A DNA stretch of 33,313 bases, from assembly GCA_964348885.1 (NCBI GenBank), contig CAYGEK010000005.1:1-33313 (forward strand), given 5' to 3'. Below, in pieces: positions 4,648 through 18,023 of the stretch. Numbering within the stretch: the first letter of the stretch is position 1; each line of letters begins with the position of its first letter. Both the position numbers and the translations under genes were made by a program. This stretch comes from an uncultured Candidatus Saccharibacteria bacterium. Its GTDB lineage: Bacteria; Patescibacteriota; Minisyncoccia; UBA6257; WO2-44-18. Under the pieces are notes generated by a model. That model was not told where the DNA came from, ran no database searches, and saw only the letters and a list, made by a program, of their open reading frames with translations.

Positions 4648-4746
4648 TTGACCCCCACACCAAACGAGAAGTGCCGCCTTTCTGGGATTGACATGCTCCT
4701 CGTTATGGTGTGGGGGTTGACAAGGCGAGTAAAAGTAATATATACT
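4648..4746 (+). promoter_or_regulatory. Palindrome-plus-promoter module, copy 1 (upstream of rpoB)
   Basis: Arms TTGACCCCCACACCAAACGAG (4648-4668) and CTCGTTATGGTGTGGGGGTTGACA (4699-4722). TTGACA at 4717-4722, an 18-nt spacer, then TATACT at 4741-4746. The arms are identical to those of the copies at 15620 and 16097. Confidence 0.6.
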
Positions 4747-15281: not shown

Positions 15282-15614
15282 ATGAAGTTTGAATTGAAAA
15301 ATTTTGGCGGCAATCTTCCCGATTTCATGCGGTCGGCCGGTTATCGCAATGACGGCATAGATCAGAAGACAAAGGAGCTATGCTTTTACAAAGCTCTCTC
15401 GGAAGGCTTGTACCCGCGTTTTCACGTGTATGCCGTTTGGGGCAAAGGGGATAGCGCTACTTTGAGCCTTCATCTAGACCAGAAAGCCCCGGTATACGCG
15501 GGATCAGCGGCGCATTCAGGGGATTATGAAGGGCCGGTAGTGGAAAAAGAGGCTGATCGGATACGCAACTCCGCTCCCAAGGCCTCTGACTTCCTTATTC
15601 GCCCGCTTGATTAG
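15282..15614 (+). CDS. Hypothetical protein (110 aa)
   Basis: ORF with host-like composition. No family recognised. No SD; the start is preceded directly by the inverted-repeat arm. Confidence 0.55.
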   Translation: MKFELKNFGGNLPDFMRSAGYRNDGIDQKTKELCFYKALSEGLYPRFHVYAVWGKGDSATLSLHLDQKAPVYAGSAAHSGDYEGPVVEKEADRIRNSAPKASDFLIRPLD

Positions 15615-15619
15615 TAGTA

Positions 15620-15714
15620 TTGACCCCCACACCAAACGAGGATCAGCTTCGCTGACCGGCAGGAATCCTCGTTATGGTGTGGGGGTTGACATTTGCCATA
15701 CAATATGGTATATT
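15620..15714 (+). promoter_or_regulatory. Palindrome-plus-promoter module, copy 2
   Basis: The 73 bp at 15619-15691 are identical to 16096-16168. TTGACA at 15686-15691, a 17-nt spacer, then TATATT at 15709-15714. SD GAGGAGGG at 15729-15736, then the ATG at 15744. Confidence 0.65.
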
Positions 15715-15743
15715 TTTATGAGAAAATTGAGGAGGGTTAAGCT

Positions 15744-16013
15744 ATGAATCAGCTGCGGATCAGGCAGGCCATCTCCGCGCTTTCGGATCAGTACGAGCTG
15801 GCGACCCGATCCGACGGCGAGGCCGTGGCGAGTGAGGGGGACGCCTTGGAGTGCGGTCTGGAGATCCTGACCCCCGACGAGCTGCGTCGCCGCCTTCAGA
15901 GCCATCTGGCGCGCGAGCAGAATATCGCCGGTCACGTAGGCCAGCTCTACCGGAACGCGCGTCAGGCGCGCGCCGAGGGCGTGGACCTGGACAAGCTCGC
16001 CGAGGAGAGTTAG
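15744..16013 (+). CDS. Small GC3-rich hypothetical protein A (89 aa)
   Basis: Consensus promoter, strong SD and ATG upstream. By hand count about 75 of 89 codons end in G/C, far above neighbouring genes. An intrinsic terminator follows. Confidence 0.6.
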   Translation: MNQLRIRQAISALSDQYELATRSDGEAVASEGDALECGLEILTPDELRRRLQSHLAREQNIAGHVGQLYRNARQARAEGVDLDKLAEES

Positions 16014-16041
16014 GCTGGAGGAAGCTTCGCTCCCTTAGGAC

Positions 16042-16077
16042 ATCCCCTTATCGCCAATCGGCATAAGGGGATTTTTA
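16042..16077 (+). terminator. Intrinsic terminator after ORF A
   Basis: ATCCCCTTAT(C)GCC / GGCATAAGGGGAT stem followed by TTTTT. Confidence 0.8.
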
Positions 16078-16096
16078 ATGCGTCAGAAGCAGGGGA

Positions 16097-16191
16097 TTGA
16101 CCCCCACACCAAACGAGGATCAGCTTCGCTGACCGGCAGGAATCCTCGTTATGGTGTGGGGGTTGACAAATTAGGTTTAGTATGCTATATT
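16097..16191 (+). promoter_or_regulatory. Palindrome-plus-promoter module, copy 3
   Basis: Identical palindrome to copy 2. TTGACA at 16163-16168, a 17-nt spacer, then TATATT at 16186-16191. SD TAGGAGGG at 16215-16222, then the ATG at 16229. Confidence 0.65.
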
Positions 16192-16228
16192 GTTCGGGTA
16201 CATTAAGAGTGTTTTAGGAGGGTTGATC

Positions 16229-16387
16229 ATGGACAATCTGGGCGCGGACAAGGAATCCGAGGAAGTGCTGGAGGAGCTGGACCAGGAGAGCGAGGTCCTG
16301 AAGAAGGACTGGCATCACCGGCGGCCCCTGCAGCTCGTGGATCCCACGACCGGCCTGATGGCCAGAGCGATCGGGATCTTCCAGTAG
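16229..16387 (+). CDS. Small GC3-rich hypothetical protein B (52 aa, acidic N-terminal half; starts MDNL)
   Basis: ATG 6 nt after the SD. About 46 of 52 codons end in G/C by hand count. The ORF-track start at 16190 lies inside the -10 element, so I trimmed it. Confidence 0.55.
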   Translation: MDNLGADKESEEVLEELDQESEVLKKDWHHRRPLQLVDPTTGLMARAIGIFQ

Positions 16388-16411
16388 ATCTATCCTACGC
16401 GTAAGGTTTTT

Positions 16412-16436
16412 GGGGAGGATGTTCCTCCCCGCCTTT
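16412..16436 (+). terminator. Hairpin GGGGAGGA-TGT-TCCTCCCC (weak T-tract); possible terminator of ORF B
   Basis: Perfect 8-bp GC-rich stem. The downstream sequence GCCTTTAAT is only weakly T-rich. Confidence 0.45.
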
Positions 16437-16642
16437 AATCAGCTCGCAACCTCCGGTTGCGGTCTGATATGGAGGAGGATAATAAGATGAAGTGAATTTC
16501 GGCAGTAGAGTAGCTGGCCACTAAAACAAATCAGTAGGTGGCCACCTTTCTCCAGTCCGTGACGATTGCGTCGTGGTCTGGAATCAAGGTAGAATGTTTT
16601 TCTGTGCTTTTTGAAATATAGTTTTGTTGGGAGGGCGGCGAA

Positions 16643-16861
16643 ATGGACAATCTTAACGGTTACGGATTGAACGTGAACGCCGGCGCGGACGCCGACGATG
16701 ACGAGCAGTTCGTGAACGAGCTTCGCGAGGGGCGGAGCGGCTGGTCCCGGGCGATGCGCGCGATGAATCGCGGGTATCACGCGAGGCAGCCGCGGACCAT
16801 CAATCTGGAAGGTTCCGGCGAAATCGAGGTGGGCAAGGGAGCCATCATCCGGCAGTTCTAG
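16643..16861 (+). CDS. Small GC3-rich hypothetical protein C (72 aa; starts MDNL, like ORF B)
   Basis: GGGAGGG SD-like run before the ATG. About 59 of 72 codons end in G/C. Shares the N-terminal MDNL and an acidic-then-basic layout with ORF B. Confidence 0.5.
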   Translation: MDNLNGYGLNVNAGADADDDEQFVNELREGRSGWSRAMRAMNRGYHARQPRTINLEGSGEIEVGKGAIIRQF

Positions 16862-17277
16862 TTCCCCCTGTTCTACAATCGAGGAGGCTGCGTGCTACGT
16901 TTTCTGAGGCAGTTTCTGTAGATGTTGGTCGGGTGGGCGGGCCCCGACCTAAAAAAACAAACCGCAATACACTTGAACAACGCATCGCCGACCGCTGGGG
17001 CGAGCGGCCCGAGAATCACCCAAGGATCCAGTCGGAAGATTGAATCCAAAACGTGAGGGCTCGACCGCTCGCCCCATCCCCGAACGATTCAGGGAGGAGG
17101 GCCAATGCTTCGTAGAACCTAGGCCCACTAAGAGGGGTCGCCAAAAGTCCCGAGGAGCTGCGATAAAAGTGGCTTCTGGGTTGGCTAAACAAAGGCCAAA
17201 ATCGTGGACACGCTCTAGCCTTACCACCTAGAGCAGCATCCGGTTAGAAAGAAGCATCCCGACACGGCAAGCAGTAA
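16862..17277 (+). ncRNA. Candidate large structured non-coding RNA, or a structured 3' UTR of ORF C
   Basis: GC-rich with no convincing ORF. Many helices, e.g. a roughly 16-bp helix GGGGCGAGCGG(C)CCGAG 16997-17012 with CTCG(A)CCGCTCGCCCC 17060-17075, GGTCGGG/CCCGACC at 16928-16949, and GCTCTAG/CTAGAGC at 17212-17234. It ends at a strong + strand terminator. Confidence 0.35.
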
Positions 17278-17318
17278 CCCCCGTTCAGCGAAAGCTGGGC
17301 GGGGGATTTTTATTTTTT
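17278..17318 (+). terminator. Strong intrinsic terminator
   Basis: CCCCCG-TT-CAGC-GAAA-GCTG-GG-CGGGGG followed by ATTTTTATTTTTT. Confidence 0.85.
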
Positions 17319-17357
17319 AATGCTGTATTCTTAAATAAGTTGTTTGAGAGGTGTGAC

Positions 17358-18023
17358 GTGAAGTGGCTGCTCGTAATCGCAATCATCATATTACTGCTGC
17401 CGCTCCTCGGCTGCGCCCGGGCACTTTTAATTGACCAGAGGAGTGGGGTTCATTTCGTGGTATACGCTAACGATGTTCCGATTGAAAAATTGGATTATAT
17501 TGAAAATGCGATTAAGATGGTTCGCCACATGACCAAGCCGGAGATTGTCTTTCATATTCTAGAGCCCGACTCGGTTCATCTTGGCAAAACTTGGATGGGC
17601 GGCAGTGCCGCCGCGCACCTATGCTATATCGGCGTTGGTCGTGTGTGCATGAGCGCCAACTATATCTGCTACCGGACAATCTTTCATGAAGTGGGGCATC
17701 TCTACCATTCTCGCCGCAATCGCGAGTCCCGACGTTTTCATCTTGATTGGGTAGCGCTTGCGGGACCGGTATATATTCAGGATACGAAGCTTCCGAATAC
17801 TGATGGCATTCTCACGAACTATAGTCGCGGCAATCCCGGTGAGGATATCGCCGAATGGGTCGCGGAATGTTACGCGTATCTCGCCGAAGGCGTGAATAGT
17901 TGCATTACCGGTAATCTGGCGGTGAAGACCGACCCGCGCTATCGGCAGAAGCTAGCATTGCTGCACTTGCACGGATTCTTCACGGACGCCGATTATGAGA
18001 AACTTAAGCCCCTTTTCCAATAA
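17358..18023 (+). CDS. Putative lipoprotein zinc metallopeptidase (HExxH, gluzincin-like), paralog 1
   Basis: A GTG start gives MKWLLVIAIIILLLPLLGC (signal peptide plus lipobox Cys). HEVGH motif and downstream GEDIAEWVAECY, where the Glu is a possible third ligand. The ORF track starts at 17340. Confidence 0.75.
   Translation: MKWLLVIAIIILLLPLLGCARALLIDQRSGVHFVVYANDVPIEKLDYIENAIKMVRHMTKPEIVFHILEPDSVHLGKTWMGGSAAAHLCYIGVGRVCMSANYICYRTIFHEVGHLYHSRRNRESRRFHLDWVALAGPVYIQDTKLPNTDGILTNYSRGNPGEDIAEWVAECYAYLAEGVNSCITGNLAVKTDPRYRQKLALLHLHGFFTDADYEKLKPLFQ

What the first reader, a model, noticed from the sequence alone, without database searches (positions are those of the whole stretch)
15744..16861. 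Micro-ORFs A, B and C have foreign-looking, extremely GC3-rich codon usage but native-looking expression signals
By hand count, about 84 percent (ORF A), 88 percent (ORF B) and 82 percent (ORF C) of codons end in G/C. Neighbouring genes such as rpsM, rpoB and the two peptidases sit at roughly half. Such a strong third-position bias is itself evidence that these frames are or were translated, and it suggests recent acquisition from a high-GC donor. Yet ORFs A and B sit behind copies of the same promoter element that precedes rpoB. If the organism is an episymbiont, one speculative reading is capture of host-derived small proteins placed under strong native promoters.
Basis: partly seen in the sequence, partly recalled or inferred. 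Interest (0 to 1): 0.65.

Follow-up and report, generated by a model that had tools for sequence, protein, structure and literature searches.

The report
GC3-rich small-gene cassettes in a Parcubacterium
Three tiny genes in an ultra-small groundwater bacterium really do use almost only G/C-ending codons. They are old, genus-specific genes of the bacterium itself, part of a distinct class of strongly promoted orphan genes whose odd composition is actively kept up, not recent imports from a GC-rich host.

Summary
GC3 is 0.84, 0.88 and 0.82 for ORFs A, B and C. The genome median is 0.57 and the 99th percentile about 0.77-0.84. Neighbouring genes and ribosomal-protein genes lie at 0.44-0.67.

The frames are real genes. 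Each has a strong ribosome-binding site, and relatives carry orthologues. dN/dS is 0.24-0.47, each significantly below 1.

Recent import from a high-GC donor is not supported:
- The only homologues among 1.84 and 5.8 billion proteins come from the same Parcubacteria genus.
- Congeneric genomes carry A, B or C in the same chromosomal slot.
- Synonymous sites are saturated between them, yet GC3 stays at 0.72-0.91 against backgrounds of 0.48-0.66.

A, B and C belong to a discrete genome-wide class. Eight of 12 genes with GC3 of at least 0.8 sit behind near-perfect extended -10 promoters, against 7 of 726 other genes. All are orphans. Their codon usage differs from that of the ribosomal-protein genes, and the GC rise is confined to the coding sequence.

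A co-occurring allele of C differs at 47 positions, all inside the coding sequence, with identical flanks. The cassettes are therefore exchanged by recombination.

The cause of the bias is unresolved: selection on the coding sequence or GC-biased gene conversion. Protein function is unknown.

The parts
15619..15691 (+). Palindromic element, copy 1. The arms are CCCCCACACCAAACGAGGA / TCCTCGTTATGGTGTGGGGG, flanked by a direct TTGAC repeat. Its right end supplies the -35 box of the ORF A promoter.
   Evidence: 73 nt are 100% identical to copy 2; the orthologous promoter in L044 reads ATTGACA with no palindrome, so this is an insertion with a 5-bp duplication of TTGAC.
15686..15714 (+). ORF A promoter: TTGACA, 17-nt spacer, TG-n-TATATT (extended -10).
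   Evidence: 11 of 12 hexamer positions match and TG is present. Searches show the sequence.
15744..16013 (+). ORF A, 89 aa, GC3 0.84. It is Arg-rich and predicted mostly helical. The ribosome-binding site GAGGAGGG lies 8 nt upstream.
   Evidence: Orthologues: G002 (66 aa, 50% identity) and L044 (88 aa, 59% identity), with dN/dS 0.42 and 0.47. AF2 mean pLDDT 72.
16044..16077 (+). Intrinsic terminator after ORF A: stem CCCCTTAT...ATAAGGGG followed by a T run.
   Evidence: Read directly from the sequence. It is conserved in L044. The pattern scan did not call it.
16096..16168 (+). Palindromic element, copy 2, identical to copy 1, inserted in the -35 box of the ORF B promoter.
16163..16191 (+). 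ORF B promoter: TTGACA, 17-nt spacer, TG-n-TATATT.
16229..16387 (+). ORF B, 52 aa, GC3 0.88. It has an acidic N-terminal half followed by a W-H-x-R-R...D-P-x-T-G motif. The true start is the ATG at 16229, behind the ribosome-binding site AGGAGGG, not the TTG at 16190.
   Evidence: Orthologues: G002 (61 aa, 48% identity) and L044 (52 aa, 79-82% identity), with dN/dS 0.25 and 0.24. The first 26 residues are identical to L044 despite 5 synonymous changes.
16412..16430 (+). Hairpin after ORF B (GGGGAGGA-TGT-TCCTCCCC) with only a weak U tract. It is probably a leaky terminator or attenuator.
   Evidence: Sequence. Conserved in L044.
16471..16495 (+). Mini-ORF with its own strong ribosome-binding site: GGAGGAGG, 8 nt, then ATG AAG TGA.
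   Evidence: The equivalents are ATG ATG AAG TGA in L044 and ATG CGT TGA in G003, at the same place in the B-to-C spacer.
16542..16592 (+). Conserved structured leader before ORF C. It is a three-tier hairpin closed by ACCUU...AAGGU, followed by a U-rich tract, UUUGAAA and the ribosome-binding site.
   Evidence: 17 pairs, 5 of them with compensatory changes among 5 copies. Covariance model R1 hits G001, G002 (three times, two of them strong), G003, G005 and G006. In G001, G002 and G003 the strong hits sit before GC3-rich small ORFs. The contexts in G005 and G006 were not inspected.
16643..16861 (+). ORF C, 72 aa, GC3 0.82. It has an acidic N-terminus, a basic middle and a strand-like C-terminus. 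No promoter of its own was detected.
   Evidence: Orthologue in G003 (65 aa, 39% identity, dN/dS 0.37). Allele in L043 (74% aa identity, dS 0.54, dN/dS 0.35).
16862..17318 (+). GC-rich, helix-dense non-coding tail after ORF C, ending in a strong terminator (17278-17305 plus a T run). It holds a ribosome-binding site and a 5-codon mini-ORF at 17105-17122 (MLRRT*).
   Evidence: No credible ORF and no Rfam family. Terminator. Partly conserved in G002 and G003. 276 nt are identical in the allele contig L043.
4648..4723 (+). Third copy of the palindrome, with the same arms and a different loop. It is again bracketed by TTGAC and supplies a TTGACA box 270 nt upstream of rpoB.

Best explanation
A, B and C are three native, genus-restricted, fast-evolving small cytoplasmic protein genes. 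They occupy a variable slot between a conserved 110-aa gene and the peptidase / dnaG-rpoD block.

They belong to a discrete class of stand-alone orphan cassettes found across this genome and in related Parcubacteria. Each cassette has a near-perfect sigma-70 promoter with a TG extension or a conserved structured leader, then a GGAGG ribosome-binding site, then a coding sequence almost free of A/T-ending codons, then a hairpin terminator.

Likely expression (inferred). A is monocistronic. B is transcribed from its own promoter. C has no promoter of its own and is probably reached by read-through past the weak hairpin after B, through the structured leader.

The GC-rich codon usage is not a fading trace of transfer. 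It is at equilibrium and is held there by a force that acts on the coding sequence. My preferred cause is selection for A/U-poor, G/C-ending codons as part of a high-output cassette design: more stable, RNase-resistant mRNA read by the retained CNN/GNN tRNAs.

Shown: the genes are real, old, translated, compositionally maintained and linked to these promoters. Inferred: high expression, read-through to C, and selection as the cause. I put about 0.85 on the 'native, old, maintained class' part and about 0.45 on selection as the cause.
For: - **GC3 values and genome distribution:**
- **Coding status:** dN/dS is 0.24-0.47 with Fisher p of 0.003-0.007. Gaps between orthologues leave the reading frames intact. 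B's N-terminal 26 residues are unchanged across 5 synonymous substitutions.
- **Age:** A and B are present in G002 and C in G003, in the same slot. Synonymous sites are saturated, with pS 0.58-0.66 in the cassettes and 0.69-0.88 in the adjacent 110-aa gene.
- **GC3 independent of background:** cassette GC3 is 0.72-0.91 where the local background is 0.48-0.66, in six related genomes.
- **No donor:**
- **Discrete class:** of 19 matches to TTGAC[AT]-N13-15-TGnTAnAnT in the genome, about 11 drive ORFs with GC3 of at least 0.8. Eight of 12 high-GC3 genes carry the motif against 7 of 726 others (odds ratio 205, p = 1.5e-12). GC3 jumps only at promoter score 13 or more out of 15.
- **Shared codon usage:** third-position A is 4-5% and T 7-11%. 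Both G- and C-ending codons rise, CCC rises and TTG falls. Ribosomal-protein genes look like the bulk.
- **Confined to the coding sequence:** GC is 0.37-0.42 upstream, 0.56-0.66 inside from the first codons, and 0.37-0.45 beyond the terminator stem.
- **tRNAs:** many C- and G-first anticodons are retained in a roughly 0.7-Mb genome.
Against: - No expression data could be obtained.
- Ribosomal-protein genes do not share the bias. This is not classical translational selection, and 'high expression' rests on signal strength alone.
- Amino-acid composition is also shifted towards GC-rich codons in A-C: R/(R+K) is 0.81 against 0.42 in the bulk. That fits a general GC pressure such as biased conversion as well as it fits selection.
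- Shuffling synonymous codons shows no extra mRNA structure beyond what composition gives. z is about -0.5 on average, and only C reaches -3.0.
- The mosaic allele of C shows that recombination acts exactly here, which favours the conversion rival.
- Distant homologues of another high-GC3 gene (C7:2747-4135) are not GC3-rich in an AT-rich family, so the trait can be lineage-specific.
- Protein functions remain unknown.
Confidence: 0.5

Rival explanations
1. GC-biased gene conversion. The cassettes are hot spots of homologous exchange between strains and species. Repair of heteroduplex mismatches favours G/C, which drives freely evolving sites, mainly third positions, to high GC. The functionally constrained and nearly identical flanks stay AT-rich.
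For: - The allele contig L043, from the same sample as L001, has 47 mismatches, all within coding nucleotides 33-211 of ORF C. The 88 nt on the 5' side and 284 nt on the 3' side have none. By my own calculation, the chance under uniform divergence is about 1e-23.
- Cassette content in the slot turns over: X in G002, Y in L044, A absent from G003, C absent from G002.
- Both G- and C-ending codons rise, and amino-acid usage shifts towards GC-rich codons.
- An association between recombination and GC3 in bacteria has been described (PMC4450053).
Against: - The effect is far larger than the few per cent reported for bacteria (my reading of PMC4450053).
- Conversion alone does not predict the tight, step-like link with near-perfect promoters.
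- The GC rise starts at the start codon and ends at the stop or terminator, whereas conversion tracts need not respect those limits.
- Only one mosaic allele was seen.
Confidence: 0.25
2. A circulating GC-rich accessory gene pool. The cassettes belong to an unseen mobile pool, such as phages or plasmids of Patescibacteria with higher GC. They are repeatedly re-introduced at insertion hot spots, much like phage morons, so they never decay towards the host composition.
For: - The units are self-contained promoter-ORF-terminator modules with patchy distribution, and content differs in the same slot between species.
- Several high-GC3 genes lie next to tRNA genes or at contig ends.
- In L044 the A'-B' pair follows a different upstream gene.
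Against: - A and C found no relative in 2.9 million IMG/VR contigs, and A found none in JGI metagenome contigs or in 1.84 billion protein representatives outside the genus.
- No integrase or other mobility gene lies in or near the slot. The only tyrosine recombinase in the genome is on another contig.
- The promoters, ribosome-binding sites and leader are AT-rich and specific to this lineage.
- Orthologues show vertical-looking divergence in the same slot.
Confidence: 0.15
3. One reading: recent horizontal acquisition from a high-GC donor, possibly the host of an episymbiont, placed under native promoters.
For: Overall GC of 63-67%, the GC1/GC2/GC3 pattern and Arg-rich composition look like genes from a genome of about 65% GC.
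Against: - No homologue exists outside the genus.
- Orthologues sit in the same slot in congeneric genomes with saturated synonymous sites and undiminished GC3.
- The same codon usage is found in about a dozen unrelated orphan genes with the same promoter type.
Confidence: 0.04
4. Not genes at all: GC-rich non-coding RNA, or an assembly or binning artefact that happens to have open frames.
For: GC-rich DNA has few stop codons and gives long spurious ORFs. The minus-strand ORFs at 15672-15935 and 16439-16780 are examples. Structured RNA elements surround the ORFs.
Against: - GC2 is low and GC3 high in exactly these frames.
- Ribosome-binding sites stand at the right spacing.
- dN/dS is significantly below 1 in three independent pairs.
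- Gene callers called the same three ORFs on another assembly, and a second assembly reproduces ORF A.
- Three independent assemblies agree.
Confidence: 0.02

Closest known systems
Phage 'morons' (autonomous promoter-ORF-terminator units in lambdoid prophages; from my own knowledge)
   Same: These are single small genes with a private promoter and terminator. Their base composition differs from that of their surroundings, their distribution among relatives is patchy, and their function is accessory.
   Different: They do not lie in a prophage and no phage genes are nearby. No relatives were found in viral collections. Their composition has been maintained over saturating divergence, which is not what a recent insertion shows.
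Classical horizontally transferred 'alien' genes and the amelioration model (Lawrence and Ochman; from my own knowledge)
   Same: GC content and codon usage are atypical for the host genome, and the genes are orphans.
   Different: No donor is known. The genes are present in sister species at the same locus, and GC3 shows no decay towards host values. Amelioration predicts decay.
Large G+C-rich (lgr) genes of Protochlamydia amoebophila (PMC2216083)
   Same: These are lineage-specific genes, much richer in GC than the host genome. According to that paper's abstract they have no homologues elsewhere.
   Different: The lgr genes are 5.6-kb paralogous leucine-rich-repeat genes, one of them on a conjugative island. 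Here the genes are unrelated 52-89-aa orphans, each with a consensus promoter, and no paralogy was found.
GC-biased gene conversion in bacteria (Lassalle et al. 2015, PMC4450053)
   Same: GC3 is raised in genes that recombine, and a recombinant allele was seen here.
   Different: The rise here is much larger (+0.25 to +0.4 in GC3), is limited to a discrete set of genes, and is tied to one promoter type.
Codon bias of highly expressed genes (translational selection; from my own knowledge)
   Same: Codon bias is strong, and promoters and ribosome-binding sites are near-consensus.
   Different: The ribosomal-protein genes do not share the bias. The preferred codons are not an intensified form of the native preference: for example, CCC rises while the genome's favourite CCG falls.

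Membership tests
Recently transferred (alien) gene | Base composition or codon usage atypical for the recipient genome | tested here: met
   GC3 is 0.82-0.88 against a median of 0.57.
Recently transferred (alien) gene | Homologues in a plausible donor lineage | tested here: not met
   The only relatives are in the same Parcubacteria genus. A and C found nothing in viral contigs, and A found nothing in JGI metagenome contigs.
Recently transferred (alien) gene | Absent from close relatives at the same locus | tested here: not met
   A and B are present in G002 and C in G003, in the same slot. A' and B' are present in L044.
Recently transferred (alien) gene | Composition decaying towards that of the host (amelioration) | tested here: not met
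   Synonymous sites are saturated, yet GC3 is 0.76-0.91 in orthologues, including in a genome with background GC3 of 0.48.
Phage moron | Own promoter and terminator around a single ORF | tested here: met
   Met for A (promoter; terminator read). B has a promoter and a weak hairpin. C has a leader but no promoter.
Phage moron | Located inside a prophage, between phage genes | tested here: not met
   The neighbours are a cupredoxin-like gene, a conserved 110-aa gene, peptidases, dnaG and rpoD. There are no PHROG hits.
Integron gene cassette | Adjacent intI integrase and attC recombination sites | tested here: not met
   The only tyrosine recombinase is on contig C11, not in this window. The repeated hairpin-leader (R1) precedes the ribosome-binding site and shows covariation typical of RNA. 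It was not compared formally with attC.
Highly expressed genes under translational selection | Same preferred codons as ribosomal-protein genes, only stronger | tested here: not met
   Ribosomal-protein genes match the bulk. The cassettes use a different set of preferred codons.
Highly expressed genes under translational selection | Measured high mRNA or protein abundance | not testable with these tools
Target of a diversity-generating retroelement | Adenine-specific differences between variants, and a reverse transcriptase | tested here: not met
   The 47 differences between the C alleles include all substitution types. The genome has no RVT_1 hit.
Locus shaped by GC-biased gene conversion | Evidence of recombination at the locus | tested here: met
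   A mosaic allele of C with identical flanks.
Locus shaped by GC-biased gene conversion | Excess of AT-to-GC changes fixing or at high frequency | tested here: inconclusive
   Between the two C alleles, third-position changes are 9 G/C swaps, 8 from G/C to A/T and 6 from A/T to G/C, unpolarised. There are too few sites and no outgroup.

The most novel reading that the evidence does not exclude
Parcubacteria, and perhaps Patescibacteria in general, keep a discrete 'GC-coded' tier of genes. These are exchangeable orphan cassettes built to one design: a near-perfect extended -10 promoter or a shared structured leader, a strong ribosome-binding site, and a coding sequence purged of A/T-ending codons. 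In this reading, base composition is itself the functional signal. It might set apart a pool of very stable or separately decoded mRNAs that depend on the retained CNN/GNN tRNAs. The cassettes would be swapped between strains by recombination through their conserved non-coding flanks.
Probability: 0.25. Interest if true: 0.8.

Novelty: new variant of a known kind. Interest (0 to 1): 0.6.

Why it matters
Atypical GC and codon usage are routinely read as recent horizontal transfer. Here that reading fails: the signal is old, confined to the lineage and actively maintained.

If a discrete class of genes is held at GC3 of 0.8-0.95 inside a 49% GC genome, some force is acting on synonymous sites. 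It could be selection on mRNA composition or unusually strong biased conversion. Either way it acts far more strongly than is usually assumed for bacteria, and it does so in organisms with tiny genomes and presumably small effective population sizes.

The finding also flags a set of probably abundant, entirely uncharacterised small proteins in uncultivated ultra-small bacteria. And it warns that composition-based detectors of transferred genes or contamination will mislabel such genes in Patescibacteria genome bins.

Tried and rejected
**Family and structure searches**
- Pfam, PHROGs, PADLOC and NCBIfam gave nothing for A, B or C.
- A profile of A against PDB sequences gave only chance hits.
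- AlphaFold2: A has mean pLDDT 72 and is helical, with a 34-residue central helix. C has pLDDT 52 and is unusable.
- A Foldseek search of the A model against the PDB gave histone-fold proteins (MHF1/CENP-S) as best hits, at E = 2.2 and TM 0.43. This is not significant and I make no claim from it.

**Homology**
- B and C are not detectably related to each other, although both start MDNL.
- There are no paralogues in the genome.
- An alignment of C-like small proteins from other genera shows a shared layout (acidic, then basic, then strand-like) but only 16-29% identity. Homology is not established.

**RNA and mechanism tests**
- Rfam found no family in 15500-17400.
- A diversity-generating retroelement is rejected: there is no A-specific spectrum and no reverse transcriptase.
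- An integron is rejected: no intI lies nearby.
- Selection for a specific mRNA fold is rejected as a general explanation. Synonymous-shuffle z-scores are near zero except for C.
- A graded link between promoter strength and GC3 is rejected. The relation is a step at near-perfect promoters.
- A transcription-coupled repair asymmetry is unlikely, because third-position G and C are equal at 0.44 and 0.43.

**Technical failures and limits**
- A fuzzy-regex scan timed out and was replaced by blastn.
- The first folding script timed out.
- Three literature searches for a described precedent in candidate-phyla-radiation bacteria found none.
Full report
**What the window is.** The window is contig C5 of a 668,558-base assembly in 73 contigs, at 49.3% GC and about 84% complete. 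It carries the end of the 23S rRNA gene, a 5S rRNA gene, rpoB, rpoC, ribosomal-protein genes, dnaG, rpoD and a DUF5667 protein. The adjacent conserved 110-aa protein has its closest relatives in bins named Parcubacteria group, Harrisonbacteria, Wildermuthbacteria and Staskawiczbacteria. The organism is therefore a Parcubacteria-type member of the Patescibacteria.

**The observation.** G/C-ending codons make up 0.84 of ORF A (15744-16013, 89 aa), 0.88 of ORF B (16229-16387, 52 aa) and 0.82 of ORF C (16643-16861, 72 aa). GC2 is only 0.31-0.43.
- All other genes in the window lie at 0.44-0.67, including ribosomal-protein genes (0.54-0.67) and rpoB (0.65).
- Genome-wide, ORFs of at least 200 aa have median GC3 0.57, 95th percentile 0.69 and 99th percentile 0.77.
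- Binomial z-scores of 4.3-5.2 show that the small size of the ORFs is not the explanation.
- A 4,563-nt contig from one independent metagenome assembly (99.89% identity) and a 521-nt contig from another (100%) reproduce the stretch. It is not a chimera.

**They are real genes.**
- Each ORF has a GGAGG-type ribosome-binding site at the right distance.
- A and B each sit 29-37 nt behind a promoter matching 11 of 12 consensus positions, with a 17-nt spacer and the TG extension.
- Relatives carry orthologues. A and B are in the congeneric genome G002, and C is in the congeneric genome G003. A closer relative carrying A' and B' is on a 1,299-nt Logan contig (L044). A second allele of C is on a 551-nt contig (L043) from the same sample as L001.
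- dN/dS is 0.47 for A, 0.24 for B and 0.35 for C in the unsaturated pairs, each significantly below 1 (Fisher p = 0.003-0.007). It is 0.25-0.42 in the saturated pairs.
- The first 26 residues of B are unchanged across five synonymous substitutions.

**Not a recent import.**
- No Pfam, PHROG, PADLOC or NCBIfam family matches.
- A word-indexed search of 5.8 billion proteins found only A itself, plus one close relative each for B and C.
- A full HMMER pass of A over 1.84 billion representatives found only the two same-genus proteins. The six other hits were weak (best 3e-11) and fell in longer proteins, five of them of 500-1,613 residues and all matched in several stretches, which I read as spurious.
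- A and C have no relative in IMG/VR viral contigs, and A has none in JGI metagenome contigs.
- The orthologues occupy the same slot, directly after the conserved 110-aa gene and before the paired peptidases or dnaG. Synonymous sites are saturated: pS is 0.58-0.66 in the cassettes and 0.69-0.88 in the flanking 110-aa gene.
- GC3 remains 0.76-0.91 in G002, whose background is 0.48, and 0.83-0.88 in G003, whose background is 0.64-0.66.
- Among the nine loci closest by the 110-aa protein, five clearly carry one to three small ORFs in this slot with GC3 0.72-0.91 (z = 4 to 9.5 against the local background). A sixth, G003 (L045), is borderline because its background GC3 is already 0.64 (z = 2.3 and 3.9). 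More distant Patescibacteria do not show this.
- A transfer relic would have decayed towards host composition, so the composition is at equilibrium and maintained.

**A discrete genome-wide class.**
- About a dozen other genes in this genome have GC3 of 0.80-0.96. Ten were scanned against Pfam. Nine match nothing and one is an SPFH/Band 7 protein.
- Nearly all are single genes with their own near-perfect promoter and a terminator.
- Of the 19 genome matches to TTGAC[AT]-N13-15-TGnTAnAnT, about 11 drive an ORF with GC3 of at least 0.8 (two reading frames corrected by eye).
- In a crude set of 738 genes, 8 of 12 high-GC3 genes have this motif within 200 nt upstream, against 7 of 726 others (odds ratio 205, p = 1.5e-12).
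- The relation is a step, not a gradient. GC3 is flat at 0.56-0.60 for promoter scores up to 12 of 15 and jumps to about 0.8 at 13-14.
- The class and A-C share one pattern of codon usage. Third-position A is 4-5% and T 7-11%. Both G- and C-ending codons rise. CCC rises from 0.09 to 0.41 while the genome's favourite CCG falls, and TTG falls. Ribosomal-protein genes are indistinguishable from the bulk. This is therefore not classical translational selection.
- The GC rise is confined to the coding sequence. GC is 0.37-0.42 in the 90 nt upstream, 0.56-0.66 from the first 30 nt of the coding sequence onwards, 0.57 in the terminator stem, and 0.37-0.45 beyond it.
- The genome keeps many tRNAs with C or G at the first anticodon position.
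- Shuffling synonymous codons shows no structure beyond what composition gives, except in C (z = -3.0). Composition alone makes these mRNAs about 40% more stable per nucleotide.

**Cassette exchange.** The L043 allele of C differs from the window at 47 of 551 positions. All 47 lie within coding nucleotides 33-211. The 88 nt on the 5' side and the 284 nt on the 3' side are identical.
- Within the coding sequence, dS is 0.54 and dN/dS 0.35, and all substitution types occur. This is allelic replacement by homologous recombination, not retroelement mutagenesis. No reverse transcriptase is present in the genome.
- Slot content also turns over. G002 has a 130-aa GC3-0.91 gene X between A and B and lacks C. 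G003 lacks A. L044 has an unrelated 68-aa gene Y (GC3 0.79) where C would be, and its A'-B' pair follows a different upstream gene.

**Expression signals.** The 'promoter element shared with rpoB' is a palindrome with 20-nt arms, bracketed by a direct TTGAC repeat.
- In L044 the orthologous A' and B' promoters read ATTGACA with no palindrome. The element is therefore an insertion into the -35 box that duplicates TTGAC and regenerates the box.
- The two copies before A and B are identical over 73 nt. The rpoB copy has a different loop.
- ORF C has no detectable promoter. It is preceded by a conserved 255-nt spacer containing a hairpin with a weak U tract, a two-codon mini-ORF with a strong ribosome-binding site, and a three-tier hairpin leader.
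- Five copies of that leader show compensatory changes at 5 of 17 pairs.
- A covariance model of it finds further copies in four genera of the family. In G001, G002 and G003 the strong hits sit before GC3-rich small ORFs. Contexts in G005 and G006 were not inspected.
- I infer that C is reached by read-through from the B promoter. The transcript would then continue through about 420 nt of GC-rich structured RNA to the strong terminator at 17278-17305.

**What the proteins do.** This is unknown.
- A is predicted to be mostly helical, with a 34-residue Arg-rich central helix (mean pLDDT 72). Its best structural matches are histone-fold proteins but are not significant (E = 2.2).
- C could not be modelled (pLDDT 52).
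- None of the three has a signal peptide or membrane segment, judging from the sequences themselves.
- I regard them as fast-evolving, probably abundant cytoplasmic accessory proteins. A is a possible nucleic-acid binder. This is conjecture.

**Cause of the bias.** Two explanations survive.
- Selection on the coding sequence is favoured by the step-like tie to one promoter type, the sharp limits at the start and stop codons, and the retained tRNAs.
- GC-biased gene conversion is favoured by the recombinant allele, by the parallel rise of G and C, and by the shift of amino-acid usage towards GC-rich codons. R/(R+K) is 0.81 in A-C against 0.42 in the bulk.
- A hidden GC-rich mobile pool is less likely, given the empty searches and the lineage-specific AT-rich signals.
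- I give selection about 0.45 and conversion about 0.25.

**Context.** Earlier notes of this scan describe similar GC3-rich stand-alone cassettes in many other Patescibacteria genomes. These are unchecked notes made by AI. I reached the same reading independently here before seeing them. Three literature searches found no published description.

Noticed in passing
window 15619-15691, 16096-16168, 4648-4723; also G000 C1 about 17785-17840 and C4 26213-26248: The palindromic element behaves like a small mobile insertion that targets the -35 hexamer. It is bracketed by a TTGAC duplication and is absent from the orthologous promoters in L044. A differently sequenced hairpin with the same TTGAC...TTGACA bracketing precedes another high-GC3 gene on C1. 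A shorter palindrome with the same arms lies on C4. Copies exist in other genera of the family.
   Followed up: partly
window 16542-16592: A conserved three-tier hairpin leader (ACCUU...AAGGU) with compensatory base changes. A covariance model finds it in four genera of the family. In G001, G002 and G003 it lies in front of GC3-rich small ORFs. It matches no Rfam family.
   Followed up: partly
window 16471-16495 and 17092-17122: Two mini-ORFs with very strong ribosome-binding sites lie inside otherwise non-coding, structured RNA. They are ATG AAG TGA, and ATG CTT CGT AGA ACC TAG (MLRRT*). Both have positional equivalents in L044, G003 or G002. They could be regulatory start-stop or leader-peptide elements.
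   Followed up: no
window 16862-17318: About 420 nt of GC-rich, helix-dense non-coding sequence between ORF C and a strong terminator. It is partly conserved in G002 and G003, and 276 nt are identical in the allele contig L043. It matches no Rfam family.
   Followed up: partly
L043 (551 nt), aligned to window 16587-17137: A second allele of ORF C occurs in the same sample. Its 47 differences all lie inside the coding sequence, and the flanks are identical. This is a clean example of a recombined cassette core.
   Followed up: yes
G000 C11 11281-11400; C4 13797-13917 and 2379-2431; C18 3370-3418; C6 13973-14007; C14 10152-10197: A dispersed repeat of about 58 nt (AAGACCTTATTGCTCGTACCCGTATTCCTGTCTACGGAATACGGGTGG plus a T run). 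It is sometimes tandem and always directly follows a first terminator. Several copies follow high-GC3 cassettes.
   Followed up: partly
G000 C6 18853-24356: Three adjacent fatty-acid beta-oxidation-type genes, with GC3 of 0.74-0.77: acyl-CoA dehydrogenase-like, a FadB-like fusion and a thiolase. I judged their identity from the translations alone. Such genes are unusual for a Patescibacteria genome, so this may be transfer or a binning error.
   Followed up: no
G000 C7 2747-4135: The largest member of the high-GC3 class is a 462-aa orphan with GC3 0.90, next to a tRNA gene. It is absent from the congeneric genomes searched. Homologues at 24-31% identity exist in another family of the order and are not GC3-rich there.
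   Followed up: partly
window 15282-15614: The 110-aa protein upstream of the slot is conserved across several Parcubacteria lineages (motif HLDQKAPVY.G..AHSG.YEGP). It matches no Pfam or NCBIfam family.
   Followed up: no
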